In this document: in pieces, positions 12 to 38,088 of the stretch
Layout: each line of letters opens with the position of its first letter
Numbering within the stretch: the first letter of the stretch is position 1
NCBI GenBank assembly: GCA_964490075.1
Contig: CAZBBK010000060.1
Coordinates: 1 to 38,414, forward strand
Direction of reading: 5' to 3'
DNA: 38,414 bases
DNA from: an uncultured Gemmatimonadota bacterium
Lineage (GTDB): Bacteria > GCA-2686955
Made by a program: the position numbers and the translations under genes
The notes under the pieces: generated by a model
Told to the model about the DNA's origin: nothing
What the model saw: only the letters and a program-made list of their open reading frames with translations
The model's database searches: none

Positions 12-38
12 CAGCCTTTCCCCCACGGGGAAAGGCTG
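12..38. other. perfect 12-bp-stem / 3-nt-loop hairpin (CAGCCTTTCCCC cac GGGGAAAGGCTG)
   Basis: Read directly: 12-23 is the exact reverse complement of 27-38. No U-run on either strand, so not a classical intrinsic terminator. Lies ~360 bp downstream of the intI stop. Confidence 0.4.
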
Positions 39-396
39 CCCGAAGTCGGCCGAACAACTCTTAGACTGACCTCCATACAAACTTGGGCGACTTTGGAACG
101 TCAGTGTAGCACGCATCGCGGGTCCCGACGCCGAGCGCCAGCGAATCCTCCGTGTCGCTGCTGCCTCGGCGCCGTGAACGGACGAAGCCGAGCCTGGTGC
201 CAAGGGCTGGGTGCACGACGATCGTGGGCCGGCTCTGACTGCGTCGGGTTCCGGTCCCCCAGCGGATCTGATCGAAGGGAATTCCGGCTCGAATTCGCGG
301 CGATGGGCTGCGGGGTTCTGCAGTGTACAGCGATCTGCTGGGGGCCGCCTGGACCGATGTGCTGATGGACGGGAAAATCGCCGCGGCCGCAGCCAC

Positions 397-2109
397 TCAC
401 TGGTCTCGGTCGCTCGAAACGTCGAATCTCCGCTCCCATTGGTGCTCACATTCCGCGCTGTGATCGAGAGTCCATACAACACTCTGCTCCATGAAGTACG
501 AGCGATCGTTCGCGCCGCCGACCGGCCAGGTCCTCCGAAAACGCCAAATGGGCCGAGTGCCCTCACCTTGAGCGTCGGCGCCTGGTCCGATCGTCGCAGA
601 CCGGGCGCCACGGCCTTCCCCGCCCGGCGGCGAATTCGAGATTGCCGACTCCGTCGACCCTGCCCCTCGGTGGGGCGGACTCGGAGCGGACGGAGATCGT
701 GGCGCAGGGATGGGGTCTGCTCGCACATCGGATCCAGCGTCTGGCGCGCGGTCCCCGGAGCGTTGCGGCCTTGGGCCATCGATCGGTTCCCGTCGTTCTC
801 GCGGCGCGGCGGAAGGGTGGAACTGGGTGTCGCCCACGATCTCCGTTGCGCCTGGCTCCTCGTCCTCATGACGTGGCCACCCCGCTCGCGATCTCTGCCC
901 CTCCACTCCGCGCCGCCCGATCGCCGGCTCCCTCTGGGGGAAGACCGATGGCGGTGCAGCTGCCCCGGGCAAAGACCCCACTCCGGGCGACAGACTACCG
1001 GGAAGAAGCGCTCGCGTATCAATCGCAATCGCGCCAGGAGGCAACACCGGCATGCCGTCCGCCGGGCTGCGCACCGCGAGGGGCCCCCGGCCGAGCACAT
1101 GCGTGTAGACCATGGTCGTGCGCAGATCGGCGTGCCCAAGCAACTCTTGAACCGTGCGGATGTCGTAGCCGTCCTCGAGCAGATGCGTCGCGAAGCTGTG
1201 ACGAAGGGTGTGGCAGCTCGCCTTCTTCTGCAGATCCGCCGCTCGCACCGCGTGCGCCATCGCGCGCTGCACGACGGTCTCGTGCAGATGATGTCGGCGC
1301 AGCTCCCCCGTCTGCCGATGATGGTAACGGCGCGTCGCCGGGAACACCCATTGCCACTTCCAGGAGCGACCGATGTCTGGGAACTTACGGGCCAATGCGT
1401 CGGGAATCTCGACCCAGCCCGCGCCCTGCTCGAGATCTCGCTCATGCTGAGCACGAACCGCCTCCATGTGCTGTGCCAGAGGGATCTGCGCCGCGCCGGC
1501 AAGCAGTGTGACTCGGTCTTTGTTGCCCTTGCCTCCACGAACCGTGAGCTGTCGCGCGGCGATGTCTACGTCCTTGATCCGCAGGCGGAGGCCTTCGAGC
1601 AGACGCAAGCCTCCGCCATAGAGGAGCAAAGCGACCAGGCGCACCGACCCCTCGAGCCGCATGATCACCGTCGCAACCTCCTCGCGTGAGAGCACCACCG
1701 GGAGGTGCTGGGCGCGCTTGGCCCGCACCAGATCCTCGAAGTCCTCCAGCTCGATCTCCAGTACGTTCCGGCACAGGAAGAGCAGCGCCGCGAGCGCCTG
1801 ATTCTGAGTCGAGGCTGAGACCTGTGCCTCGACTGCCAGTGCCGAGATGAACTGTGTCACCTCCTCGGCGTCGATCCGGTCTAGGTCCGACCACCCGCGA
1901 AAGTGGAGGAATCGCCGAACCCACTGCCAGTACGCCTTCTCGGTCTTCCGGCTGTAGTGGCGGATGCGGATCGCCGCGCGAAAGGCCTCTCGAAGCCCGG
2001 GCTCGCCGCCTGCGCTCCCGGTGCTGCCCGGTTCCATCGGCACCCGCCGCGGATTCCTGCGATCCGCGCCTTCCACCCACCGCTTGCGACTCTGCGACTC
2101 GGGCCTCAT
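397..2109 (-). CDS. intI: integron-type tyrosine recombinase (IntI family) with a ~215-aa low-complexity C-terminal extension
   Basis: Translation contains [22 protein letters not shown], the catalytic R (GLRLLEG), K (RGGKGNKDR), [12 protein letters not shown] and [16 protein letters not shown], plus the IntI-specific extra segment [22 protein letters not shown]...RRHHLHE. Strong SD (GGAGAGGAAACCAGAG ATG) at 2109. Alternative start at 2037. No stop where IntI proteins normally end (~1045), so the frame continues to 397. Confidence 0.8.
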
Positions 2110-2146
2110 CTCTGGTTTCCTCTCCGCCCGCCAAGGGTCCGAAACC

Positions 2147-2161
2147 GACCCACGGTGGGTC
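2147..2161 (-). terminator. 15-bp palindrome GACCCACgGTGGGTC followed by GGTTTC on the minus strand; weak terminator of the 131-aa gene
   Basis: Perfect 7-bp arms. Lies 20 bp downstream of the stop at 2181. A short T-containing tail follows on the minus strand. Confidence 0.3.
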
Positions 2162-2180
2162 GCGTTCCGACACCCCGGGA

Positions 2181-2576
2181 TTACGGAATAGACGATGCAT
2201 CGGATGCCTCTCGGCGGCTCCGTGGTCCCCTAGCCTCGGGCTCTCCGAATGCGTCCAGGCGGAGCTGTGCGCGTCGCGCGGCCAACGCCTCGGTCAGCGA
2301 CTCGATGTTCTCTCGCGGTTCGACGCCGTGGCGCCCCGCAGCGAGCAACAACGCGCGAAGCGTGATGGCCGGCCGCGCCGTCTGGCGCTCCCCACACCTG
2401 CGGCAGCGGAGCTCGGGTCCGTGCAGTCCGCGCCCTTCGCGCTCTACGTGAAGTCGCTCTTCGAGGCGCCGGCGCAGTGTCACGAGATCTTCCCAGCGCA
2501 TCGGGGAGCGCCACTGATCACGCAAGATGTCGACGAGCGCGGCGTACCAGATCCGCGTCACCGCCATGCCGCTCAT
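2181..2576 (-). CDS. hypothetical 131-aa protein with a C-x2-C pair (LRCRRCGE)
   Basis: Good SD (GCGAGGAGAAccgacATG). Charged, non-low-complexity composition, unlike neighbouring spurious frames. Own hairpin downstream. No family recognised. Confidence 0.55.
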
Positions 2577-2690
2577 GTCGGTTCTCCTCGCGATCTCCTG
2601 CTCCTTGTTCCCATCGGAGTCGGTTCATGATCCCTCGTCTGCAAGGAGCACGCCAGGCGAACTCCCGGCTCGGGTCTCCAGAAGGTGGAC

Positions 2691-3029
2691 TCAGATCTGG
2701 TGACGCGTCTCCGCACCTCCAATGGTCCTCCCAAGCTCCGTCAACGGTGCACCCAACGTCAGCAAGGTGCGAAACACGAGATCCAAAGAGACCGTTGGGT
2801 CAGCGGCCTCCATCTTGGCTACCTGCGACCGGCTTGACCTCACCAGCCGCGCGACCTCTGTCTGCGTCATGCTCCGCGAGGCTCGCCAATCCCTGACCGC
2901 TGCGGCCGGGGCGATCTTCACGTTCAAGAAGGCCCGTTCCTCTGCCGTCAGATCGAGGAAGTCCTCTGCGCTACCGATCTTCCATCCAGCCTTCTCCAGT
3001 CTCCTCTTCTTGTCTTCTTCTATGCCCAT
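2691..3029 (-). CDS. higA: HigA-like XRE-family HTH antitoxin (112 aa)
   Basis: MGIEEDKKRRLEKAGWKIGSAEDFLDLTAEERAFLNVK...MTQTEVARLVRSSRSQVAKMEAADPTVSLDLVFRTLLTLGAPL is the typical HigA layout: N-terminal extension followed by an XRE helix-turn-helix. ATG at 3029..3027. GC clearly lower than surrounding genes. Confidence 0.6.
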   Translation of the reverse strand: MGIEEDKKRRLEKAGWKIGSAEDFLDLTAEERAFLNVKIAPAAAVRDWRASRSMTQTEVARLVRSSRSQVAKMEAADPTVSLDLVFRTLLTLGAPLTELGRTIGGAETRHQI

Positions 3030-3230
3030 GCTCGCTCGTTGTAGATCCGCGTCATGGGCGCGCAGCCGCTGTCTGCTTGAATCGAGTACAGCTTTCGGGG
3101 TCTTGCCGGTCTTCCTGCTGAACACCGCCGCAATGACGATGGCGTCTTCGTCCATTCGATAGATGATCCTCCGACTCTGGTCGCCATCCTGAATTCGCAA
3201 CTCGCGGCAGCGCGGCGCCTGCGCTGACAT
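3030..3230 (-). pseudogene. remnant of a RelE/ParE-fold HigB toxin (C-terminal ~50 aa only), fused in frame to higA
   Basis: ELRIQDGDQSRRIIYRMDEDAIVIAAVFSRKTGKTPKAVLDSSRQRLRAH matches the ELR...YR...F.KKTQKTP core of Gp49/HigB toxins. The ~55-aa N-terminal half is absent: upstream residues are unrelated and overlap a DNA repeat. No stop codon lies between this segment and the higA ATG (LQRAS-MGIEE). Confidence 0.45.
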
Positions 3231-3282
3231 GAGACGAGAATGCGGCAGGCCCGGCACAGCGATCCTCCACGCAGGAAGCGCG

Positions 3283-3428
3283 GCCGGCACGCGAAGAAGA
3301 GCTGTCGAGACCACCTTCCTACCGCGCCTGGAACCCGGAGGCCCGCGGGCTCCCGCTGGGTCCGCGGTTCTTCGCGGAGTGCGTCGCTCGAGAGGCGCTC
3401 TGTCGAAACCCCTGATCCGGTCCAATCA
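3283..3428. repeat. copy 1 of a ~130-bp repeated element (inverted copy at 37958..38088)
   Basis: The reverse complement of 3283-3408 aligns with 37958-38088 at roughly 85% identity, e.g. CGACGCACTCCGCGA(A/G)GAACCGCGG(A/G)CCCAGCGGGAG(C/T)CCGCGGGCC. Conservation is equal in all reading frames, so it is non-coding. About 17-bp imperfect direct repeats (TCGACAG.GC.CT.TTCG-like) flank an ~80-bp core. Confidence 0.55.
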
Positions 3429-3430
3429 CC

Positions 3431-3446
3431 TTTGCCCGCGGGCAAA
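3431..3446. other. perfect 16-bp palindrome TTTGCCCGCGGGCAAA, 15 bp after the DUF1016 stop
   Basis: Self-complementary as read. No U-run follows on either strand. Confidence 0.4.
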
Positions 3447-3460
3447 CATCTCCCGCTCCG

Positions 3461-4216
3461 CTACTCGGCCCGCCTCTCCAGCAGCCTCCGAACGATCTCC
3501 GCCGGATCCGCCCCCTCTTCGAGCACGAAGGCGACCACGTGCCCGGAGCCGCCCGCCAGCGGCTCGATCAGCCCCTCGAAGGGCGCCTCGTCCGCCGCCC
3601 GTTTCAGGGCGTTGAAGTGGTGGCGCGCCCGCACCGCCACGGGCTGGTTCGGCTTGCGCCCGCGGCGCGAAAGCGGCCGGCCGAGCAGCTCCAGGTGCTG
3701 GTCGGCCAGCCATTGGTCGAACTGCGGCCGCGACATCTCGACGAGATCGTCGGCCTGCTCGGCCACAGCGGCGCGGGCAGCCGGTTCGCGCAGCAGCGGC
3801 GTGAGCTGGCGGGCGCGGCTCCAGGGCAGGCGCTCGATCTGGGGCAGCAGCTCCGCGTCGGGGTCGGCGCCGTGGAACTCGTGGGCCCGGTAGAGGGTGG
3901 AGGCGTCGATGCCGGTGTCCTCCGCCAGGCTCCTGAAGATCCGTCCGCCGTAGCGCCGGCGGCGATCGCCCTGCGCCAGGAAGCGGTCGATGCGCTTGCC
4001 GATCTCCCAGTAGATCTTCACCATCGCGGCAAAGCGGCTCCGGCAATGGCTCGCCAGCTCGACGTAGCCCTTTTCCGCCTGCAGCTCCGGGTCGGCGTTG
4101 CCGCGCGCCTGGTGGACGATGCTGCGATCCAACGAGCGACCGTTTCCGGCGACCTCCCTCGAGCCGGAAACGGGCTCCGCGACTGCGTCAGCGTTGCGGT
4201 CCGTGACGTCTGCCAT
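3461..4216 (-). CDS. DUF1016 (YhcG-family) N-terminal-domain protein lacking the PD-(D/E)xK nuclease half
   Basis: KIYWEIGKRIDRFL...RRRYGGRIFRSLAEDTGIDASTLYRAHEFH and LPWSRARQLTPLL match the YWxIG...RAxYG...LSxxL...NLxxMRxFY and LSWSHY..LL motifs of the DUF1016 N domain. Only 251 aa, and the C-terminal 80 aa are unrelated to PD-(D/E)xK. SD with A6 tract (CGAAAAAAGGGGCGAACAATG) at 4216. Confidence 0.6.
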   Translation of the reverse strand: MADVTDRNADAVAEPVSGSREVAGNGRSLDRSIVHQARGNADPELQAEKGYVELASHCRSRFAAMVKIYWEIGKRIDRFLAQGDRRRRYGGRIFRSLAEDTGIDASTLYRAHEFHGADPDAELLPQIERLPWSRARQLTPLLREPAARAAVAEQADDLVEMSRPQFDQWLADQHLELLGRPLSRRGRKPNQPVAVRARHHFNALKRAADEAPFEGLIEPLAGGSGHVVAFVLEEGADPAEIVRRLLERRAE

Positions 4217-4499
4217 GTTCGCCCCTTTTTTCGTGCGGCCGCGGGCGCACCCCCCGCTGGACGTGGTCCCAATGGGCCGCGCGTAGAGAAGAATAACAAC
4301 GCCCCACCCCGTGCTGTTGCTTCACCGACAAGAAAAGGTCCGTCCCTGAGAAGAAGTGACGACATTTCGTCGGAACAGGGCGCCAAAATCGTGGGCGCGG
4401 CCCGTCCGTCCATTTTCCTCGACGGCGCTACACTATTTCGCGCTGCCGGCGCAGCCCAAAGGGACAGGCTCTCCCGGTCCGGGCTTTTCCCGACTCCCG

Positions 4500-6125
4500 T
4501 TACCCCTTCGTCCGAAACGCCCGCGCCCCTCCCAGGCCCAGCTTCTGCATCCGGCTGCGCAGAGTGCTCGGGTTGATCCCGAGCAGCTCGGCCGAGCCGC
4601 CGGCCCCGTACAGCTTGCCGCCGGTCCGCTCCAGCGCCCGCTCGATGTGTTGTCGCTCCGCGTCGCGCAGAGTCGGGAAGGGCTGCTCGTCTTCGAGCAA
4701 AGCGCTGGGTGTCCGGCCCGGCCCCCGCATCACCCCTGCCGCGTCCGCTTCCGCGCCCCCTTCACCGCCCCGGTCGCTCGGCCGGTCCCCATCCAACCCC
4801 AGCTCCAACTCCGGTCCGGAGCTCAAGATCGTCGCCCGCTCCAGCAGGTTGATCAGCTCGCGCACGTTGCCGGGCCAGTCACGCGCCCGCAGCCGCGCCC
4901 CAACCCCCGCGCCGAGCCGCCAGGGACCGCGTCCGGTGCGCCGCGCCAGCTGCTCCAAGAACCCCTCGGCGATCGCCTCGATGTCATCGGGACGCTCGCG
5001 GAGCGCCGGCATCTCGATCGGGAAGACCGCCAGGCGATAATAGAGGTCCTGCCGAAAGCGCTGCTCCGCCACCGCTCGCGGCAGATCGATGTTGGTGGCG
5101 GCGATCACCCGCACGTCGACGCGCAGGCTGCGGTCGCTGCCGACCGGCTCGAAGCAGCCCTCTTGCAGGGCGCGCAGCAGCTTGGGCTGCAGCTCGACCG
5201 GCATCTCCCCGATCTCGTCCAGGAAGAGGGTGCCGCCGTTGGCCGCCTGGAAGCGGCCGATGCGCGCCTTGGTGGCGCCCGAGAAGGCGCCTTTGACGTG
5301 GCCGAAGAGCTCGCTCTCGATCAGGTTGGCCGGCAGGGCGGCGCAGTTGATGCCGATCAGCGGACGGGCGGCGCGCGGGCTCCAGCCGTGGATGGCGCTG
5401 GCCAGCACCTCTTTGCCGGTGCCGGTCTCGCCGGTGATCAGCACCGGGGTGTCGGCGGCGGCCACGGCGCGCGCGGTGCGCACGATCAGGGTCATGGCGG
5501 GGCTGCGGTTGGCCTCCATCATGGCGCAGGCGTCGCGGCGCTCCTCGACCCGCTCCCCCAGGAGCCGGTTCTGCTCCTTGAGCTGCTGGCTCAACCGGCT
5601 CAGCAGCGCCGACTGCTCGCCGTAGCTCATCGCCATCGCCAGGAGCTTGCCGAACACGTCGGCCAGGTCCACCACCTGGGCGGGATACACAGCGCAGACA
5701 CGCCGGTCGAAGGTCATGATCCCGAGGGGACCGGAATGCGCCCGCAGGGGAACCACCATGCAGGAATGCCCGTGCGGCAGGTCGAGCACGCCGTCGAAAG
5801 CGTCGCCATCGCCGTCGCGATGATCGTGCTCGGTGAATGGCCGCGCATGATCCTGCTCCAGGAGCGCGCGAATGCTGGGGAAGCGCTCCAGCTCCAGCAG
5901 GTGGCGCCGCACCGCCGGACCGGCCAGCGACCCGCGCGCCACCCGTACGTGCAGCGCGTCGCCGCGCAGCTCCATGATGGTCGCCAGGTCGTAGGGGACC
6001 AACCGGCCCAGAGTCTCCATCGCCTGGCCCAGCAATTCGTTCACCTGCTCGACCGACGTGGCCAGCCCGGCCGCCTGACGCAGATCGCGGGTCAGATCGA
6101 GAATCGTCTTCGAGGATGGAACCAT
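4500..6125 (-). CDS. sigma54-dependent transcriptional activator, GAF-AAA+-Fis-HTH architecture, no receiver domain
   Basis: [15 protein letters not shown] (Walker A), [15 protein letters not shown] (GAFTGA-type sigma54 contact loop), C-terminal [21 protein letters not shown] (Fis-type HTH), N-terminal ~170-aa GAF-like domain. SD GGGAGGGAGAC ATG at 6125. Alternative ATG at 6140. Confidence 0.85.
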
Positions 6126-10287: not shown

Positions 10288-12705
10288 TCAGCGGTAGCGC
10301 ACCTCGATCGCATCGAGGCGGAAGATGGCGCCCGTCGACTCCGGGCGCTGCTCGCCGCGGACGCGGATATCGAGCAGGTGGAAGCCGTCCACCAGACTGT
10401 CGGCGGCGGCGATGGTGCGTTGCAGCTCGAGGCTGTCGGCGTAGGTGTCGACGGATGCCAGAAGGGCGTGGTCGAGGTAGATGTCGACCAGGCCCTGGTC
10501 GGGGCCGCGCAGGCCGATCACGCGCACGCCGATGCCGTCGAAATGCATCCGCGCGCGGGCGTCGGGTTGGTCGGAGAAGGCGTAGCCGCGCTTGATGCAG
10601 CCGGGCTGGACCGCGCGGCCCCAGCTGCCGCTGGGGACGATCGGCTCGTCGCGGGCGTCGTCGTAGATCTCGTGGGTGCTGACCACCGACCAGTCGGCGC
10701 CGCCGTCGGTGGAGCGCAGGAGCCCTTCGAAGCCGCCGAGGAAGAGGGTCGAGTCGGATGGGAAGGCCGGGCTGAGCTCCAGCCAGCTGGAGCTGACGGC
10801 GTCGTCGCAGGGGCTCGAGACGCGTCCCCAGCTCTCGCCGGCGCCGGTCGAGCGGTAGACCCCGTGCGACATGGTGGTGGCCAGGATCGTGCGGTCGGTG
10901 GCGAAGCCGGGTGAGAGGGCGAGGTGGGTGGGGCGCGCCGGGTCGAGACCGGCGCCGCGCCGGCTCCAGGTCTGGCCGTGGTCGGTCGACTTCTGGAAGC
11001 CGAGGGTGTCGGTGAGGGCGAAAGCCAGGCCGGAGACGGAGAAGTCGGGGGCGAGGGCGAGCTGCAGGTAGGCGTCGACCGGGCTGGCGGTGACGCTCCA
11101 GCTGCGGCCGCCGTCGGTGGAGCGGTGCACGGCGGAGGTGGAATCGGGTCCGGCGATGAAGAGGGTAGAGTCGACCGGGAAGTCGGGCGAGAGCGCCAGC
11201 TCCCAGAAGCGCCCGGGCGGGGGGTCGGGCAGCCGCGGCCAGGTGGCGCCGCCGTCGGTGGAGCGGTGCAGCTTGGTGATCTCATGCACGCTGAAGGCGT
11301 AGATGGTGCGGTCGGTCGCGTAGCCGGGTGAGAACTGGATGCCGCGGATCGCGTTGCGCTCGATCAGCGAATCGGGCGGTGGGATGGCGACGTGGGTCCA
11401 GGTGAGGCCGCGGTCGACGCTGCGCTGGATTCCGCCGCTGGTGCCGCTCAGGATCAACGAGTCGGCGGCGAACTCGGGCGAGAAGACCAGGGCGTTGGAC
11501 GACATGCCGGCGTAGTCGGTGATGCGCACGTCCCAGCTCGAGCCGCCGTCCTGCGAAATGCTGAAGGGCATGCCGTAGCCGGTGTAGGCGACCACGGAAT
11601 CGCTCTCGAAGGCGGGCGAGAGGGCGATGCGGTGGCCGAAGCGGGTCGGGTTGATGTTGGCCTGGTGCCAGCTATCGCCACCGTCGAAAGAGCCGTAGAG
11701 ACCCTCCATGGTGCCGCACAGGACCAGGGGCGGATCGGGGTAGGCGCGGGCGAGCTCGACGTCGAGGTAGTGGACGCTGACGCGGTCCCAGAGCTTGACC
11801 GCCAGCGGCGTGTGCTGCCAGCTTTCGCCGCCGTCGCGCGAGCGGTAGAGCCCGGCCTCCTTGGTGGTGACGAAGAGCTCGGGCGGATCGGGGAAGGCGG
11901 GGGCGGCGGCGATGTCGGTGCAGTAGAGCTCGGCGAGACCGACGTTGATCGGCAGGAAGGAGGCGCCGGCGTCGGTGGAGCGCAGCACGCCCTGGTCGAG
12001 GGTGGCCAGCCACAGGGTGGGGTTGGTGGCGTAGTCGGGGGCGATCTCGAGCGCCGCCACGACGGCAGCCGGCAGACGGGTGATCCAGGTGGCGCCGCCG
12101 TCGCCGCTGATCCGCAGGGTCGAGTCGGAGAGGGCGAGGGCGACCGTGGAGTCGGCATCGAAGCGGTCGGAGACCTCGAGCACCTCGATCTCGGGCGCGA
12201 GAGGATCGAGGGGATCGCCGCTCTCGAAGACCGAAAGAGTCGACAGGCCGCCGTCCGCGGAGCGGTGAAGGGCGTGGGAGGAGGCCGCGAAGAGGCCGCG
12301 TCCGCCGCCGGCGAAGCGCGGCACCGCGAGGTGCTCCAGGCGCTCGGGACCGATCGGCGGCAGCCAGTGCTGGCCGCGATCGAGCGAGGGCTGCAGCCGC
12401 CCCGATCCGGTCAGGATCCAGGCCACCCCGGAGGTGTCCCAGTCCGAGGCCGCGACGATTCCGTCGGCCCGATCGGAGAGGGCGCCGCAGCGCGACTGGC
12501 GCCAGGTCTTGCCGGCATCCTGGCTGCGCAGCAGCACGTTGCTGGTGCCGGCCGACCCGACCAGCAGGGTGCGGTCGAAGGCGAACTGGGGGCTGATCGC
12601 GTAGCCGTCGATGATGTCGTGGGGGTGGTGGGCGTGCGCCGGGCGCGGCGCGGCGGCGGCCAGCAGCGCGGCACAGACGGCGAGAAGCGACGGCGAGCGA
12701 GACAA
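10288..12705 (-). CDS. secreted BNR/Asp-box repeat protein, probable double beta-propeller
   Basis: About 13 S-x-D-x-G-x-(T/S)-W repeats (STDGGATW, SRDGGESW, SQDGGSSW, STDHGQTW and others). TTG start with SD GGGGGA gives the signal peptide MSRSPSLLAVCAALLAAAAPRPAHA. Confidence 0.75.
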   Translation of the reverse strand: MSRSPSLLAVCAALLAAAAPRPAHAHHPHDIIDGYAISPQFAFDRTLLVGSAGTSNVLLRSQDAGKTWRQSRCGALSDRADGIVAASDWDTSGVAWILTGSGRLQPSLDRGQHWLPPIGPERLEHLAVPRFAGGGRGLFAASSHALHRSADGGLSTLSVFESGDPLDPLAPEIEVLEVSDRFDADSTVALALSDSTLRISGDGGATWITRLPAAVVAALEIAPDYATNPTLWLATLDQGVLRSTDAGASFLPINVGLAELYCTDIAAAPAFPDPPELFVTTKEAGLYRSRDGGESWQHTPLAVKLWDRVSVHYLDVELARAYPDPPLVLCGTMEGLYGSFDGGDSWHQANINPTRFGHRIALSPAFESDSVVAYTGYGMPFSISQDGGSSWDVRITDYAGMSSNALVFSPEFAADSLILSGTSGGIQRSVDRGLTWTHVAIPPPDSLIERNAIRGIQFSPGYATDRTIYAFSVHEITKLHRSTDGGATWPRLPDPPPGRFWELALSPDFPVDSTLFIAGPDSTSAVHRSTDGGRSWSVTASPVDAYLQLALAPDFSVSGLAFALTDTLGFQKSTDHGQTWSRRGAGLDPARPTHLALSPGFATDRTILATTMSHGVYRSTGAGESWGRVSSPCDDAVSSSWLELSPAFPSDSTLFLGGFEGLLRSTDGGADWSVVSTHEIYDDARDEPIVPSGSWGRAVQPGCIKRGYAFSDQPDARARMHFDGIGVRVIGLRGPDQGLVDIYLDHALLASVDTYADSLELQRTIAAADSLVDGFHLLDIRVRGEQRPESTGAIFRLDAIEVRYR

Positions 12706-12778
12706 TTCGGTCCCCCATGTGGGCCGGCGGCGGACAGTGCCAGCCTCTACAACATCTAACCGCCGTCGCGCCCGCGCG

Positions 12779-13510
12779 TCAAACCGAACGCCGGCCACAG
12801 AGGTAGTACTGCCCCCCCGCCGGCAGGCGGTGCAGGCGCGGCTCGAGCGACCGCAGCCGGCCCAGCATCCGCGGCAGAAAGACTATGTAGCGCACCGCGA
12901 GCTGGTCCAGTGGAGCTCCGGCGCAGACCCGGCGCAGGCTGCCCGCCCTGTGCAGTTCGACCCCGGCGTCGAGCGGACAGCGCGAGACCACCCAGCGGGT
13001 GAGCGGGTTGAGGGGATTGTGCTCGAAGAGGAAGAAGAGGCCGCCGGGACGCAGCACGCGGCACATCTCGCGCACCATCGCCGGGTGCAGATCCGCGTCG
13101 GCGTGGTGGAAGATGCAGGACGAGAGCACCAGATCGAACGCTGCGTCGCCGAAAGGCAGCTGCTGCGCGGTGCCGGCCGCGAAGCTGTCCGGCGGTAGAT
13201 CGAGCGCGGCCGCGCGCGCGCGCATTCCGGCCGAGGGCTCCACGCCCCGAACCCGGCGCAGGCTGCCGCTCAGGAGCTGCACCATGCGCCCGGTCCCGGA
13301 GCCCACATCGAGCGCCGCGGCTCCGGCCGGGTCGAAGCCCATACGCCGGCACTGGTCGACCAGCTCGCGCGCCTTCAGCCGCAGATAGTAGTCCGATTCC
13401 TCGCCGCCCAGCAGCAGCTTCAGCTTCTCGTCGACCACTCCCTCGTAGTCTTCGCTGACCGCGTCGAAGCCCGCTTCCGCTCCTTCCCCCGAAACGTAGC
13501 CCGCGCTCAA
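12779..13510 (-). CDS. class I SAM-dependent methyltransferase
   Basis: Motif I LDVGSGTGRM, LVLSSCIFHH, LRPGGLFFLFEHN. TTG start overlapping the GT2 stop (TTGA). Confidence 0.7.
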   Translation of the reverse strand: MSAGYVSGEGAEAGFDAVSEDYEGVVDEKLKLLLGGEESDYYLRLKARELVDQCRRMGFDPAGAAALDVGSGTGRMVQLLSGSLRRVRGVEPSAGMRARAAALDLPPDSFAAGTAQQLPFGDAAFDLVLSSCIFHHADADLHPAMVREMCRVLRPGGLFFLFEHNPLNPLTRWVVSRCPLDAGVELHRAGSLRRVCAGAPLDQLAVRYIVFLPRMLGRLRSLEPRLHRLPAGGQYYLCGRRSV

Positions 13511-37834: not shown

Positions 37835-37957
37835 GGTGTACTCCTCGGTGGTTCGATTCGGCGGCTCGAGAGCCTGGGACGTCGCGTTCCGAGGTGGGTG
37901 GCGAGTCGCGCTTGCTGGGAGCGAGCCATCCTACAACACCGGGGAAGCCGCTAGTTC

Positions 37958-38088
37958 GGGCGTTTCGATATGGCGCTTCTCGGGCGACGCACTCCGCGAG
38001 GAACCGCGGGCCCAGCGGGAGTCCGCGGGCCTTCGGGGCTCCATGCGCGGTTGGGGGGATGTTCTCGACAGCGCTTCTTCGCGTGCCG
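37958..38088. repeat. copy 2 (inverted) of the ~130-bp repeated element seen at 3283..3428
   Basis: About 85% identity to the reverse complement of copy 1. Flanking 17-bp direct repeats TCGATATGGCGCTTCTCG and TCGACAGCGCTTCTTCG. A short direct-orientation fragment (CCCCTGATC...CCAATC) recurs at 38127-38166. Confidence 0.55.

What the first reader, a model, noticed from the sequence alone, without database searches (positions are those of the whole stretch)
2691..3230. Decayed higB toxin fused in frame to an intact higA antitoxin
Only the C-terminal ~50 residues of a RelE/ParE-fold HigB toxin survive (ELRIQ...YRMDEDAIVIAAVFSRKTGKTPK...). They run without a stop codon into the ATG of a complete XRE-type HigA. 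I read the junction directly: ...CTG CAA CGA GCG AGC ATG GGC..., with no stop. The toxin's N-terminal half is replaced by sequence belonging to the ~130-bp repeat. This looks like a snapshot of toxin inactivation with antitoxin retention, which is typical of orphan antitoxins that neutralise incoming addiction modules. The lower GC suggests horizontal origin.
Basis: partly seen in the sequence, partly recalled or inferred. Interest (0 to 1): 0.5.

Follow-up and report, generated by a model that had tools for sequence, protein, structure and literature searches.

The report
Broken higB toxin, surviving higA antitoxin
This is the wreck of an ordinary two-gene toxin-antitoxin module: the toxin gene has lost its first 40 codons and its stop codon, so its remains read straight into a still-open antitoxin gene, which is a common and well-documented way for these modules to decay.

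Summary
One ORF (2691..3425) carries 70 residues of a Gp49/HigB-type toxin (nt 3254..3045; family-profile positions 41-110 of 112, E 7e-29). With no stop codon, it runs into a complete 112-aa XRE-type HigA (3029..2691).

The first ~40 toxin residues (strand 1 and the only N-terminal helix of the predicted HigB fold) are absent from all six frames. Two other assemblies are 100% identical, so a sequencing indel does not rescue the toxin. A 131-bp interspersed repeat (3285-3415) lies where the toxin's 5' end should be.

The remnant differs at 5 of 29 invariant family positions; each full-length relative differs at one at most. In the closest intact pair (Gemmatimonadetes MAG), toxin and antitoxin share a reading frame and are separated by TGA plus 12 nt. 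The window has CGA or CAA there.

"Intact" needs qualifying. HigA has L41P, plus Q67R and R69Q at the start of its recognition helix, and ATA at the ancestral start codon.

Dozens of independent toxin-disrupted fused ORFs exist in this family. The locus sits beside a degenerate integron integrase, in the lowest-GC DNA of the window. Verdict: an ordinary decayed higBA. Low interest.

The parts
2691..3029 (-). higA: complete 112-aa XRE/HTH antitoxin ORF (ATG 3029, TGA 2693..2691)
   Evidence: Pfam HTH_3 5.7e-6, plus HTH_31 and HTH_37. Aligns end to end with 38 homologues of 102-132 aa, 70-73% identical to P0002. AF2 model has pLDDT 87 with an XRE fold. Differs from the family at L41P, Q67R, R69Q and I3 (ancestral start ATG is ATA here).
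3030..3044 (-). Junction, five sense codons CTA CAA CGA GCG AGC (L Q R A S), where relatives have the toxin stop codon
   Evidence: In the intact pair L001 the toxin ends in TGA, followed by 12 nt and then the antitoxin ATG in the same frame. That TGA aligns with CGA (3038..3036) or CAA (3041..3039), depending on where a one-codon indel is placed.
3045..3254 (-). higB remnant: 70 codons matching positions 41-110 of the 112-position toxin family profile. Start codon, strand 1 and helix 1 are missing.
   Evidence: Family HMM E 6.6e-29. Pfam Gp49 is above its gathering score. Differs at 5 of 29 invariant columns (P->L, P->S, W->R, K->R, Y->H), against at most 1 in each of 12 full-length relatives.
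3255..3284 (-). 30-nt spacer of uncertain origin. It holds GTG 3257 preceded by GGAGGA (the start of the 188-aa gene call P0001).
   Evidence: Removing 5 nt at 3252-3257 extends the toxin match by only 3 profile positions (+5 bits), which is not significant after 521 variants tried.
3285..3415 (.). Copy A of a ~131-bp interspersed repeat, occupying the place of the toxin's 5' end and promoter
   Evidence: 85% identical to 38088..37956 with 1-nt indels. No folding signal, z 0.17 and 0.39. No Rfam family. No attC-type boxes.
37956..38088 (.). Copy B of the same repeat, in inverted orientation, upstream of an acyl-CoA dehydrogenase-like gene
397..2109 (-). Context: integron integrase ORF (core about 1051..1986) with an anomalous ~214-aa C-terminal extension
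   Evidence: TIGR02249 413 bits against a cutoff of 265. 47 of 60 homologues end at ORF residue 356. Differs at 26 of 180 conserved columns.

Best explanation
This is a decaying type II toxin-antitoxin locus of the HigB(Gp49, PF05973)/HigA(XRE-HTH) kind. It was acquired horizontally and lies two genes from a degenerate integron integrase.

Shown: the toxin gene has lost about 120 nt at its 5' end. That removes the start codon, the first ~40 residues (strand 1 and the only N-terminal helix of the RelE/HigB fold) and, with them, the usual promoter/operator region. The loss ends next to a 131-bp interspersed repeat.

Inferred: the fragment cannot fold into an active mRNA interferase and is drifting. 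It has replacements at five otherwise invariant positions. Its stop codon has also been lost.

In the closest intact relative the two genes share a reading frame and are separated only by TGA plus 12 nt. One T-to-C change (TGA to CGA) would therefore be enough to merge the two ORFs. On this reading the 'fusion' is a by-product of decay, not a designed protein.

higA is still an open, full-length reading frame. I think it most likely still yields an XRE-type DNA-binding protein if the region is transcribed, either alone from ATG 3029 or carrying the 76-residue toxin stub from the Shine-Dalgarno-preceded GTG at 3257. However, changes at the first and third residues of its recognition helix, a proline inside a long helix, and the loss of its ancestral ATG suggest it is either retuned or beginning to decay too.
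For: - Domain content and open frame.
- Family HMM match to positions 41-110 only, E 6.6e-29, with no other hit in the window.
- N-terminal profile absent from all six frames.
- Indel scanning gives no significant rescue.
- Two other assemblies (Logan SRR8062346, ENA ERZ23498983) are 100% identical over 5094 and 2330 nt.
- Intact reference pair L001, with a 120-aa toxin, TGA plus 12 nt, and the antitoxin in the same frame.
- Full-length homologue P0045 models as a HigB fold (pLDDT 83; top PDB hits S. pneumoniae HigB 6AF4 and M. tuberculosis HigB1 7AWK/7NBU, TM 0.6-0.68). The missing segment is E8-10 plus H22-36.
- The remnant differs at 5 of 29 invariant columns, against at most 1 in each relative.
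- Independent decayed or fused relatives exist. L011 is 5'-truncated at profile position 68 and in frame with its antitoxin. L007 has a 1-nt frameshift. P0342-P0353 and P0389 arose by frameshift, stop loss or internal deletion.
- Atypical composition.
- Literature: most orphan antitoxins are remnants of degraded TA pairs, and toxin genes are seen as pseudogenes beside retained antitoxins (PMC7354431, section 4.2). Decay of chromosomal ccd is discussed in PMC2654758.
Against: - The remnant is still 63% identical to the L001 toxin, against 71% for the antitoxin. dS is saturated, so relaxed selection cannot be shown by dN/dS. It rests on 12 homologues only.
- A good Shine-Dalgarno site (GGAGGA, 5-6 nt) precedes GTG 3257, and the genome does use such sites. 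higA's own ATG has only a weak one. A fused 188-aa product is therefore plausible and could be more than a by-product.
- Conserved full-length HigB-HigA fusions exist elsewhere in the family.
- No promoter was detected on either strand, so expression of anything here is unproven.
- The closest intact relative is only about 70% identical, so the exact mutation that removed the stop codon cannot be reconstructed.
Confidence: 0.82

Rival explanations
1. The whole module is dead. higA is also non-functional or silent, having lost its promoter and operator with the toxin's 5' end, and merely has not yet acquired a stop codon or frameshift in GC-rich DNA where open frames persist by chance.
For: HigA has the most deviations from >=90%-conserved columns in its set of 40 (5 of 32), and three are radical: L41P inside predicted helix 29-51, and Q67R and R69Q at the start of recognition helix 67-74. 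The ancestral start ATG is ATA. No sigma-70-like promoter lies in 2000-4600. The neighbouring intI also looks degenerate.
Against: Other family members reach 4 deviations, so 5 is not a clear outlier. The 112-codon frame is intact, with an in-frame ATG two codons upstream of the old start. The Q67R/R69Q swap could mean changed operator specificity. The promoter scan is a poor test in a 69%-GC organism.
Confidence: 0.3
2. The 188-aa (GTG 3257) or 179-aa (ATG 3230) product is a functional chimeric protein. The retained sheet and C-terminal helix of HigB serve as an extra domain on HigA, for example for oligomerisation or to compete for incoming toxin partners. This would be analogous to single-chain TA fusions.
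For: A canonical GGAGGA with 5-6-nt spacing precedes GTG 3257, in a genome whose bona fide genes use such sites. The weak SD before higA's ATG suggests HigA translation normally depends on upstream translation. Gene callers predict the fused protein (P0001). A conserved 201-210-aa clade of full-length HigB-HigA fusions exists (P0117, P0321-P0337, P0340; also P0058/P0339).
Against: No relative shares this particular truncated architecture and junction. The similar cases (L011, P0353, P0054, P0003) have different breakpoints, frameshifts and junctions, which points to independent accidents. The stub lacks strand 1 and helix 1 of the fold and has lost five invariant residues, including the family's invariant Trp. 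The GGAGGA may simply be left over from the toxin's own R-G-E codons.
Confidence: 0.1
3. It is an assembly or sequencing artefact: the real locus is an ordinary intact higBA, and one or two indels or a chimeric join created the apparent truncation and fusion.
For: The source is a metagenome contig (P0201 lies on a 38,667-nt JGI contig). Repeats are classic sites of misassembly, and a repeat sits at the breakpoint.
Against: Two other assemblies made with other pipelines are 100% identical across the locus and both flanks, covering 26-5119 and 1949-4278. No trace of the N-terminal 40 residues appears in any frame anywhere in the 38 kb. No single indel restores more than 3-6 profile positions. 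The excess substitutions at invariant sites are not explained by indel errors. The three assemblies may share reads, so they are not fully independent.
Confidence: 0.03
4. The module is an integron gene cassette, and the 131-bp repeat is an attC site. Integrase-mediated recombination at attC clipped the toxin's 5' end.
For: A bona fide integron integrase lies 600 nt away. TA modules, including higBA, are classic cassettes of chromosomal integrons and carry their own promoters (PMC2654758). attC families of chromosomal integrons are 120-130-bp repeats.
Against: The repeat has no RYYYAAC...GTTRRRY boxes. The only such pair in 1900-4700 lies inside the higA coding sequence. Neither strand of the repeat folds better than shuffled sequence, z 0.17 and 0.39. 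The only other copy is 34.5 kb away, inverted, among core metabolic genes. All three ORFs next to intI are on intI's own strand. The intI itself looks degenerate. No attC covariance model could be run here.
Confidence: 0.04

Closest known systems
HigBA type II toxin-antitoxin modules of the Gp49 (PF05973) toxin / XRE-HTH (HTH_37/HTH_3) antitoxin class, e.g. S. pneumoniae HigBA (PDB 6AF3/6AF4) and M. tuberculosis HigB1 (7AWK, 7NBU)
   Same: Toxin-first gene order with tightly spaced genes. The toxin part matches Pfam Gp49 above threshold. A full-length family member models onto the HigB fold (TM 0.6-0.68). The antitoxin is an XRE helix-turn-helix protein.
   Different: The toxin lacks its first ~40 residues, its start codon and its stop codon, and has lost five invariant residues. 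Sequence similarity to the solved HigB proteins is marginal (E 0.08-0.9). No toxicity, neutralisation or operator binding was tested.
Orphan antitoxins and degraded TA loci (e.g. the parE pseudogene beside parD in Caulobacter, decayed ccdO157 in E. coli, thousands of orphan antitoxins in Klebsiella; reviewed in PMC7354431 and PMC2654758)
   Same: The toxin is inactivated while the antitoxin reading frame is retained. The locus is on horizontally acquired DNA. Many independent parallel cases occur within the same family.
   Different: Here the toxin remnant has also lost its stop codon, so the two ORFs merge, and the antitoxin's recognition helix is altered. An anti-addiction role is only conjecture.
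Single-polypeptide (fused) toxin-antitoxin proteins such as EzeT and CapRel (PMC4826407, PMC9712102), and the full-length HigB-HigA fusions found here (P0117 clade, P0058/P0339)
   Same: Toxin-derived and antitoxin-derived sequence lie in one open reading frame.
   Different: Those fusions keep a complete toxin domain and are conserved across many lineages with a shared junction. The window's ORF keeps only a truncated, mutated toxin stub plus the antitoxin's own start codon, and shares its junction with no conserved clade.
TA cassettes of sedentary chromosomal integrons (e.g. higBA-1/-2 of the Vibrio cholerae superintegron)
   Same: A higBA-type module lies next to an integron integrase.
   Different: No attC sites were detected and there is no cassette array. 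The ORFs are co-oriented with intI, intI looks degenerate, and core genes begin 2.4 kb from intI.

Membership tests
HigB / Gp49-like toxin (PF05973; RelE/ParE superfamily) | Sequence match to the family profile above the curated threshold | tested here: met
   Pfam Gp49 25.6 bits against a cutoff of 23.9, but only profile positions 38-89 of 90. Subfamily HMM positions 41-110 of 112, E 6.6e-29.
HigB / Gp49-like toxin (PF05973; RelE/ParE superfamily) | Complete RelE-type fold (N-terminal strand and helix packed on a 3-4-stranded sheet, plus a C-terminal helix) | tested here: not met
   The full-length relative P0045 models as E8-10, H22-36, E46-48, E56-63, E66-74, E79-87, H94-111 and hits HigB structures. 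The window copy starts at about position 41, so E8-10 and H22-36 are absent, and they are not found in any frame. It is a gene fragment, not a member in working order.
HigB / Gp49-like toxin (PF05973; RelE/ParE superfamily) | Own start and stop codons; conservation of family-invariant residues | tested here: not met
   No native start codon. No stop before higA. 5 of 29 invariant columns are changed, against at most 1 in each relative.
HigB / Gp49-like toxin (PF05973; RelE/ParE superfamily) | Ribosome-dependent mRNA cleavage / growth arrest on expression | not testable with these tools
   Needs expression in a host with and without HigA.
HigA-type XRE antitoxin | XRE helix-turn-helix domain | tested here: met
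   HTH_3 5.7e-6, above its cutoff. AF2 model pLDDT 87, with five-helix XRE-fold hits (ClgR, C proteins, HipB; TM 0.5-0.8 to target).
HigA-type XRE antitoxin | Encoded immediately downstream of, and co-oriented with, a HigB-type toxin gene | tested here: met
   It directly follows the toxin remnant in the window. The intact arrangement is seen in L001-L006 for the closest homologue P0002.
HigA-type XRE antitoxin | Conservation of the family's recognition-helix motif SSQSRVAKME | tested here: not met
   The window has SSRSQVAKME. Q67 and R69 are at least 90% conserved in 38 homologues and are swapped here. L41P is also present.
HigA-type XRE antitoxin | Neutralises the cognate toxin and represses the operon | not testable with these tools
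   Needs co-expression and DNA-binding assays.
Integron gene cassette | Bounded by an attC site (R''/L''...L'/R' imperfect palindrome with RYYYAAC / GTTRRRY boxes) next to intI/attI | tested here: not met
   intI is present. There is no box pair in intergenic DNA 1900-4700, and the 131-bp repeat shows no hairpin signal. This is a consensus and folding test only; no attC covariance model was available.
Conserved single-chain HigB-HigA fusion clade (P0117-like, 201-210 aa) | Full-length toxin domain joined to the antitoxin at the shared junction ...YD(x5)ANGW..., without the antitoxin's first ~10 residues | tested here: not met
   The window keeps the antitoxin's own N-terminus and ATG, lacks the toxin's N-terminus, and its junction (DADLQRAS-MGIEEDKKRRLEKAGW) is of the read-through type.

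The most novel reading that the evidence does not exclude
The SD-led 188-aa ORF (GTG 3257) is a selected product: a HigA that carries a catalytically dead HigB sheet-and-helix stub as a built-in decoy or oligomerisation domain. That would be a step on the path by which this family repeatedly generates stable single-chain HigB-HigA proteins such as the conserved 201-210-aa clade seen.
Probability: 0.06. Interest if true: 0.5.

Novelty: new member of a known kind. Interest (0 to 1): 0.15.

Why it matters
It matters little on its own. It is one more documented case of the standard decay path of type II TA modules: the toxin dies first and the antitoxin lingers. Here that sits beside an equally worn-out integron integrase.

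Its practical value is for annotation. The 179-244-aa 'Gp49 + HTH' protein that gene callers predict here should be read as a higB pseudogene plus higA, not as a two-domain protein.

A side result may be more useful than the locus itself. This HigBA subfamily throws up many merged ORFs, and at least one clade of full-length fusions is conserved. That clade would be a better place to ask whether single-chain HigBA proteins are functional.

Tried and rejected
(1) Frameshift rescue of a full-length toxin. A six-frame search with a profile of toxin positions 1-42 gave only negative-score hits elsewhere. Systematic deletion or insertion of 1-8 nt across 3235-3300 gained at most 5 bits over 521 variants. 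Rejected.

(2) A MAFFT alignment seemed to align the repeat-encoded residues (DRAPL, GPPGS, ALLR) with the toxin N-terminus. I rejected this as a forced alignment. HMMER does not extend into that region. The second repeat copy differs by 1-nt indels, so the repeat is not conserved as coding sequence.

(3) The repeat as attC, a structured RNA or a known element. There are no boxes, no folding signal and no Rfam family anywhere in the window. The core 26-mer gave 0 hits in 185k genomes. A 22-mer gave 5 metagenome hits that are only pattern-length matches, plus one weak 71% match. Its nature stays unknown.

(4) Inversion between the two inverted repeat copies carrying the toxin's 5' half to the far copy. 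No toxin N-terminus lies near 37.8-38.4 kb.

(5) dN/dS between the window and L001. dS is saturated (2.5-3.6), so this is uninformative.

(6) Direct sequence search of the PDB with HigA gave no hit. With the toxin profile it gave only marginal HigB hits. Fold searches were needed instead.

(7) The sigma-70 promoter scan of 2000-4600 found nothing.

(8) The PADLOC and PHROG scans added only generic HTH and Gp49-like hits.

Full report
WHAT IS THERE

The feature is on the minus strand. ORF 2691..3425(-) is open for 244 codons. Pfam finds two domains in it:
- Gp49/HigB-like toxin (PF05973): residues 71-121, profile positions 38-89 of 90, 25.6 bits against a gathering score of 23.9.
- XRE helix-turn-helix (HTH_3): residues 177-231.

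The junction reads GAC GCG GAT CTA CAA CGA GCG AGC ATG GGC ATA GAA = D A D L Q R A S M G I E, with no stop codon.

higA runs from ATG 3029 to TGA 2693..2691 (112 aa).

HOW MUCH TOXIN IS LEFT

A database search with the 179-aa product returned three kinds of hit:
- an identical 188-aa gene call (P0001);
- about 40 stand-alone antitoxins of 102-132 aa, the best being P0002 from a Gemmatimonadetes MAG at 73% identity;
- eleven stand-alone toxins of 109-140 aa.

I built a profile from 12 full-length toxins. It matches the window at positions 41-110 of 112 (nt 3254..3045, PGLPHSRLMSAQAPRCRELRIQ...RLRAHDAD, E 6.6e-29) and nowhere else in six frames of the 38 kb. About 70 residues therefore survive, not about 50. 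The ATG at 3230 is the conserved internal Met of the family motif RPMP, not a start codon.

A profile of positions 1-42 alone finds nothing in any frame. A MAFFT alignment seemed to pair upstream residues with the toxin N-terminus, but I reject this:
- HMMER does not extend into that region.
- That DNA belongs to a repeat whose second copy differs by 1-nt indels.
- Scanning 521 artificial indel corrections gains at most 5 bits.

Two other public assemblies (Logan SRR8062346 and ENA ERZ23498983) are 100% identical over 5094 and 2330 nt spanning the locus.

WHAT THE MISSING PIECE WAS

An AlphaFold model of the full-length homologue P0045 (pLDDT 83) has the elements E8-10, H22-36, E46-48, E56-63, E66-74, E79-87 and H94-111. 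Its best PDB matches are HigB toxins:
- S. pneumoniae HigB, 6AF4;
- M. tuberculosis HigB1, 7AWK and 7NBU (TM 0.6-0.68 across these two proteins);
- V. cholerae HigB2.

The window copy lacks the first strand and the only N-terminal helix. I infer that it cannot fold into an active toxin.

It also differs at 5 of the 29 columns that are invariant in the 12 relatives (P->L, P->S, W->R, K->R, Y->H). Each relative differs at one at most. This points to relaxed selection, with the caveat that only 12 sequences were used. Pairwise dN/dS is useless here because dS is saturated.

THE BREAKPOINT AND THE REPEAT

A 131-bp sequence at 3285..3415 recurs at 38088..37956 in inverted orientation, at 85% identity. 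It begins 30 nt upstream of the last clearly toxin-derived codon. Only 45 nt, which include a perfect 16-nt palindrome (3431-3446), separate it from the stop codon of the upstream DUF1016_N gene. So there is no room for the lost toxin half on its far side.

What the repeat is not:
- It does not fold better than shuffled sequence (z 0.17 and 0.39).
- It matches no Rfam family.
- It has no attC-type boxes.
- Its conserved core is absent from 185k reference genomes.
- It gave only pattern-length hits in metagenomes.

It marks the deletion's edge. Whether it caused the deletion is unknown.

HOW THE FRAMES MERGED

In the closest intact pair (L001, a marine Gemmatimonadetes MAG) the layout is a 120-aa toxin, then TGA, then 12 nt, then the antitoxin ATG, all in one reading frame. 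Codon-by-codon alignment gives the following:
- L001's TGA falls opposite the window's CGA or CAA, depending on where a one-codon indel is placed. Each is one T-to-C transition away from a stop codon.
- L001's start ATG falls opposite the window's ATA.
- The window's ATG lies two codons upstream of that ATA.

A single substitution in a no-longer-selected stop codon is thus enough to create the 'fusion'. This is an inference, because the relatives are only about 70% identical.

IS higA INTACT?

At ORF level, yes. It aligns end to end with its homologues, and an AF2 model (pLDDT 87) has the XRE fold.

However, it deviates at 5 of 32 columns that are at least 90% conserved, the most in a set of 40 (others reach at most 4). 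Three of these changes are radical:
- L41P, in the middle of predicted helix 29-51.
- Q67R and R69Q, at the first and third residues of recognition helix 67-74 (family motif SSQSRVAKME; here SSRSQVAKME).

From general knowledge of XRE/434-type repressors, these positions contact bases. Operator specificity is therefore either changed or lost.

No sigma-70-like promoter was found, though that is a weak test at 69% GC.

A canonical GGAGGA lies 5-6 nt before GTG 3257, the start of the 188-aa gene call. Bona fide genes in this window use such sites. higA's own ATG has only GAGCGAGC upstream. If the region is transcribed, a stub-HigA fusion protein is therefore a realistic product.

IS THE FUSION SPECIAL?

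A full scan of 1.8 billion cluster representatives and a profile search show many merged toxin-antitoxin ORFs in this family. They arose in different ways:
- frameshifts (L007/P0003, P0054, P0343, P0345, P0347-P0349);
- stop loss (P0055, P0342, P0346);
- 5' truncation at a different point (L011/P0057, profile positions 68-108 only);
- internal deletions (P0351, P0389).

These junctions are heterogeneous, which fits independent accidents in a tightly packed operon.

Separately, there is a conserved clade of full-length fusions of 201-210 aa: P0117, P0321-P0337 and P0340, plus the related pair P0058/P0339. They share a gapless junction. The window does not belong to that clade. It keeps the antitoxin's own N-terminus and lacks the toxin's.

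CONTEXT

An integron integrase lies at 397..2109(-) (TIGR02249, 413 bits). It looks degenerate:
- Its ORF runs about 214 aa past the point where 47 of 60 homologues end.
- It deviates at 26 of 180 conserved columns.
- No attC-like sites were detected.
- The three small ORFs beside it are on its own strand.

Core genes follow from 4.5 kb onward: a sigma-54 activator (recognised from its sequence), then peroxiredoxin, SOD, PEPCK and glycogen phosphorylase.

The higB'-higA segment has the lowest GC in the window: 60.6% against 68.6%, with GC3 72% against 88-91% in core genes. That is consistent with foreign origin. No second toxin of this family lies in the window.

VERDICT

This is an ordinary, well-understood situation. 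Reviews describe orphan antitoxins as mostly remnants of degraded TA pairs, and describe toxin pseudogenes beside retained antitoxins (PMC7354431, section 4.2; PMC2654758).

It needs these corrections:
- About 70 residues survive, not about 50.
- The repeat is adjacent to the breakpoint, not shown to have replaced the toxin's 5' end.
- 'Intact' holds only at ORF level.
- The anti-addiction role is untested.

Interest is low. The locus is a new, decayed member of a known kind.

Noticed in passing
window 397..2109 (-): Integron integrase (TIGR02249, 413 bits). Its ORF continues about 214 aa beyond where 47 of 60 homologues end (ORF residue 356), and it differs at 26 of 180 >=95%-conserved columns (next worst 17, 10, 7). 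No attC-like box pairs lie in the adjacent intergenic DNA, and the adjacent ORFs are on intI's own strand. It looks like a decayed or empty chromosomal integron.
   Followed up: partly
window 3285..3415 and 37956..38088: A ~131-bp interspersed repeat: two inverted copies 34.5 kb apart, 85% identical with 1-nt indels. It shows no hairpin signal, no Rfam match and no attC boxes. It is absent from 185k reference genomes and effectively absent from the metagenome collection. Its nature is unknown.
   Followed up: partly
proteins P0117, P0321-P0337, P0340; P0058/P0339 (locus L010 3001-3630): A conserved clade of full-length HigB-HigA single-ORF fusions (201-221 aa). They share a gapless junction (...YDPQNLEANGWKIG... 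/ ...YDAAAAGANGWRTGS...). In the P0117 group the HTH is eroded, and Pfam detects only Gp49. These may be genuine single-chain TA proteins.
   Followed up: partly
L011 288-779; L007 2857-3534; P0342-P0353, P0389: Many independent merged or decayed toxin-antitoxin ORFs in the same family. L011 has a 5' truncation at profile position 68. L007 has a 1-nt frameshift. Others arose by stop loss or internal deletions.
   Followed up: partly
window 3257..3270 (-): GGAGGA lies 5-6 nt upstream of GTG 3257, exactly at the edge of toxin homology. It gives the fused 188-aa ORF a canonical ribosome-binding site. It may be left over from the toxin's own R-G-E-S codons.
   Followed up: partly
window 3431..3446: A perfect 16-nt palindrome, TTTGCCCGCGGGCAAA, lies 15 nt after the stop codon of the DUF1016_N gene (3461..4216, minus strand), between that gene and the repeat. 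It has no U-tract.
   Followed up: no
window 3461..4216 (-): A 251-aa protein with only a sub-threshold DUF1016_N match (30.2 bits against a cutoff of 32.8) and hits to PADLOC candidate-defence family PDC-S02. It lacks the C-terminal nuclease domain usual in YhcG-like proteins.
   Followed up: no
window 2751..2800: ACCCAAC...(36 nt)...GTTGGGT is the only RYYYAAC/GTTRRRY pair near the integrase, and it lies inside the higA coding sequence. Probably chance.
   Followed up: no
window 2181..2576 (-): A 131-aa ORF between intI and higA, with a good Shine-Dalgarno site (GAGGAGA) and no match in Pfam, NCBIfam, PADLOC or PHROGs.
   Followed up: no
window 10288..12798 (-): The short direct-repeat families at 10.7-12.3 kb fall inside a BNR/Asp-box (Sortilin-Vps10-like) repeat protein gene. 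They are coding repeats, not a DNA element.
   Followed up: no
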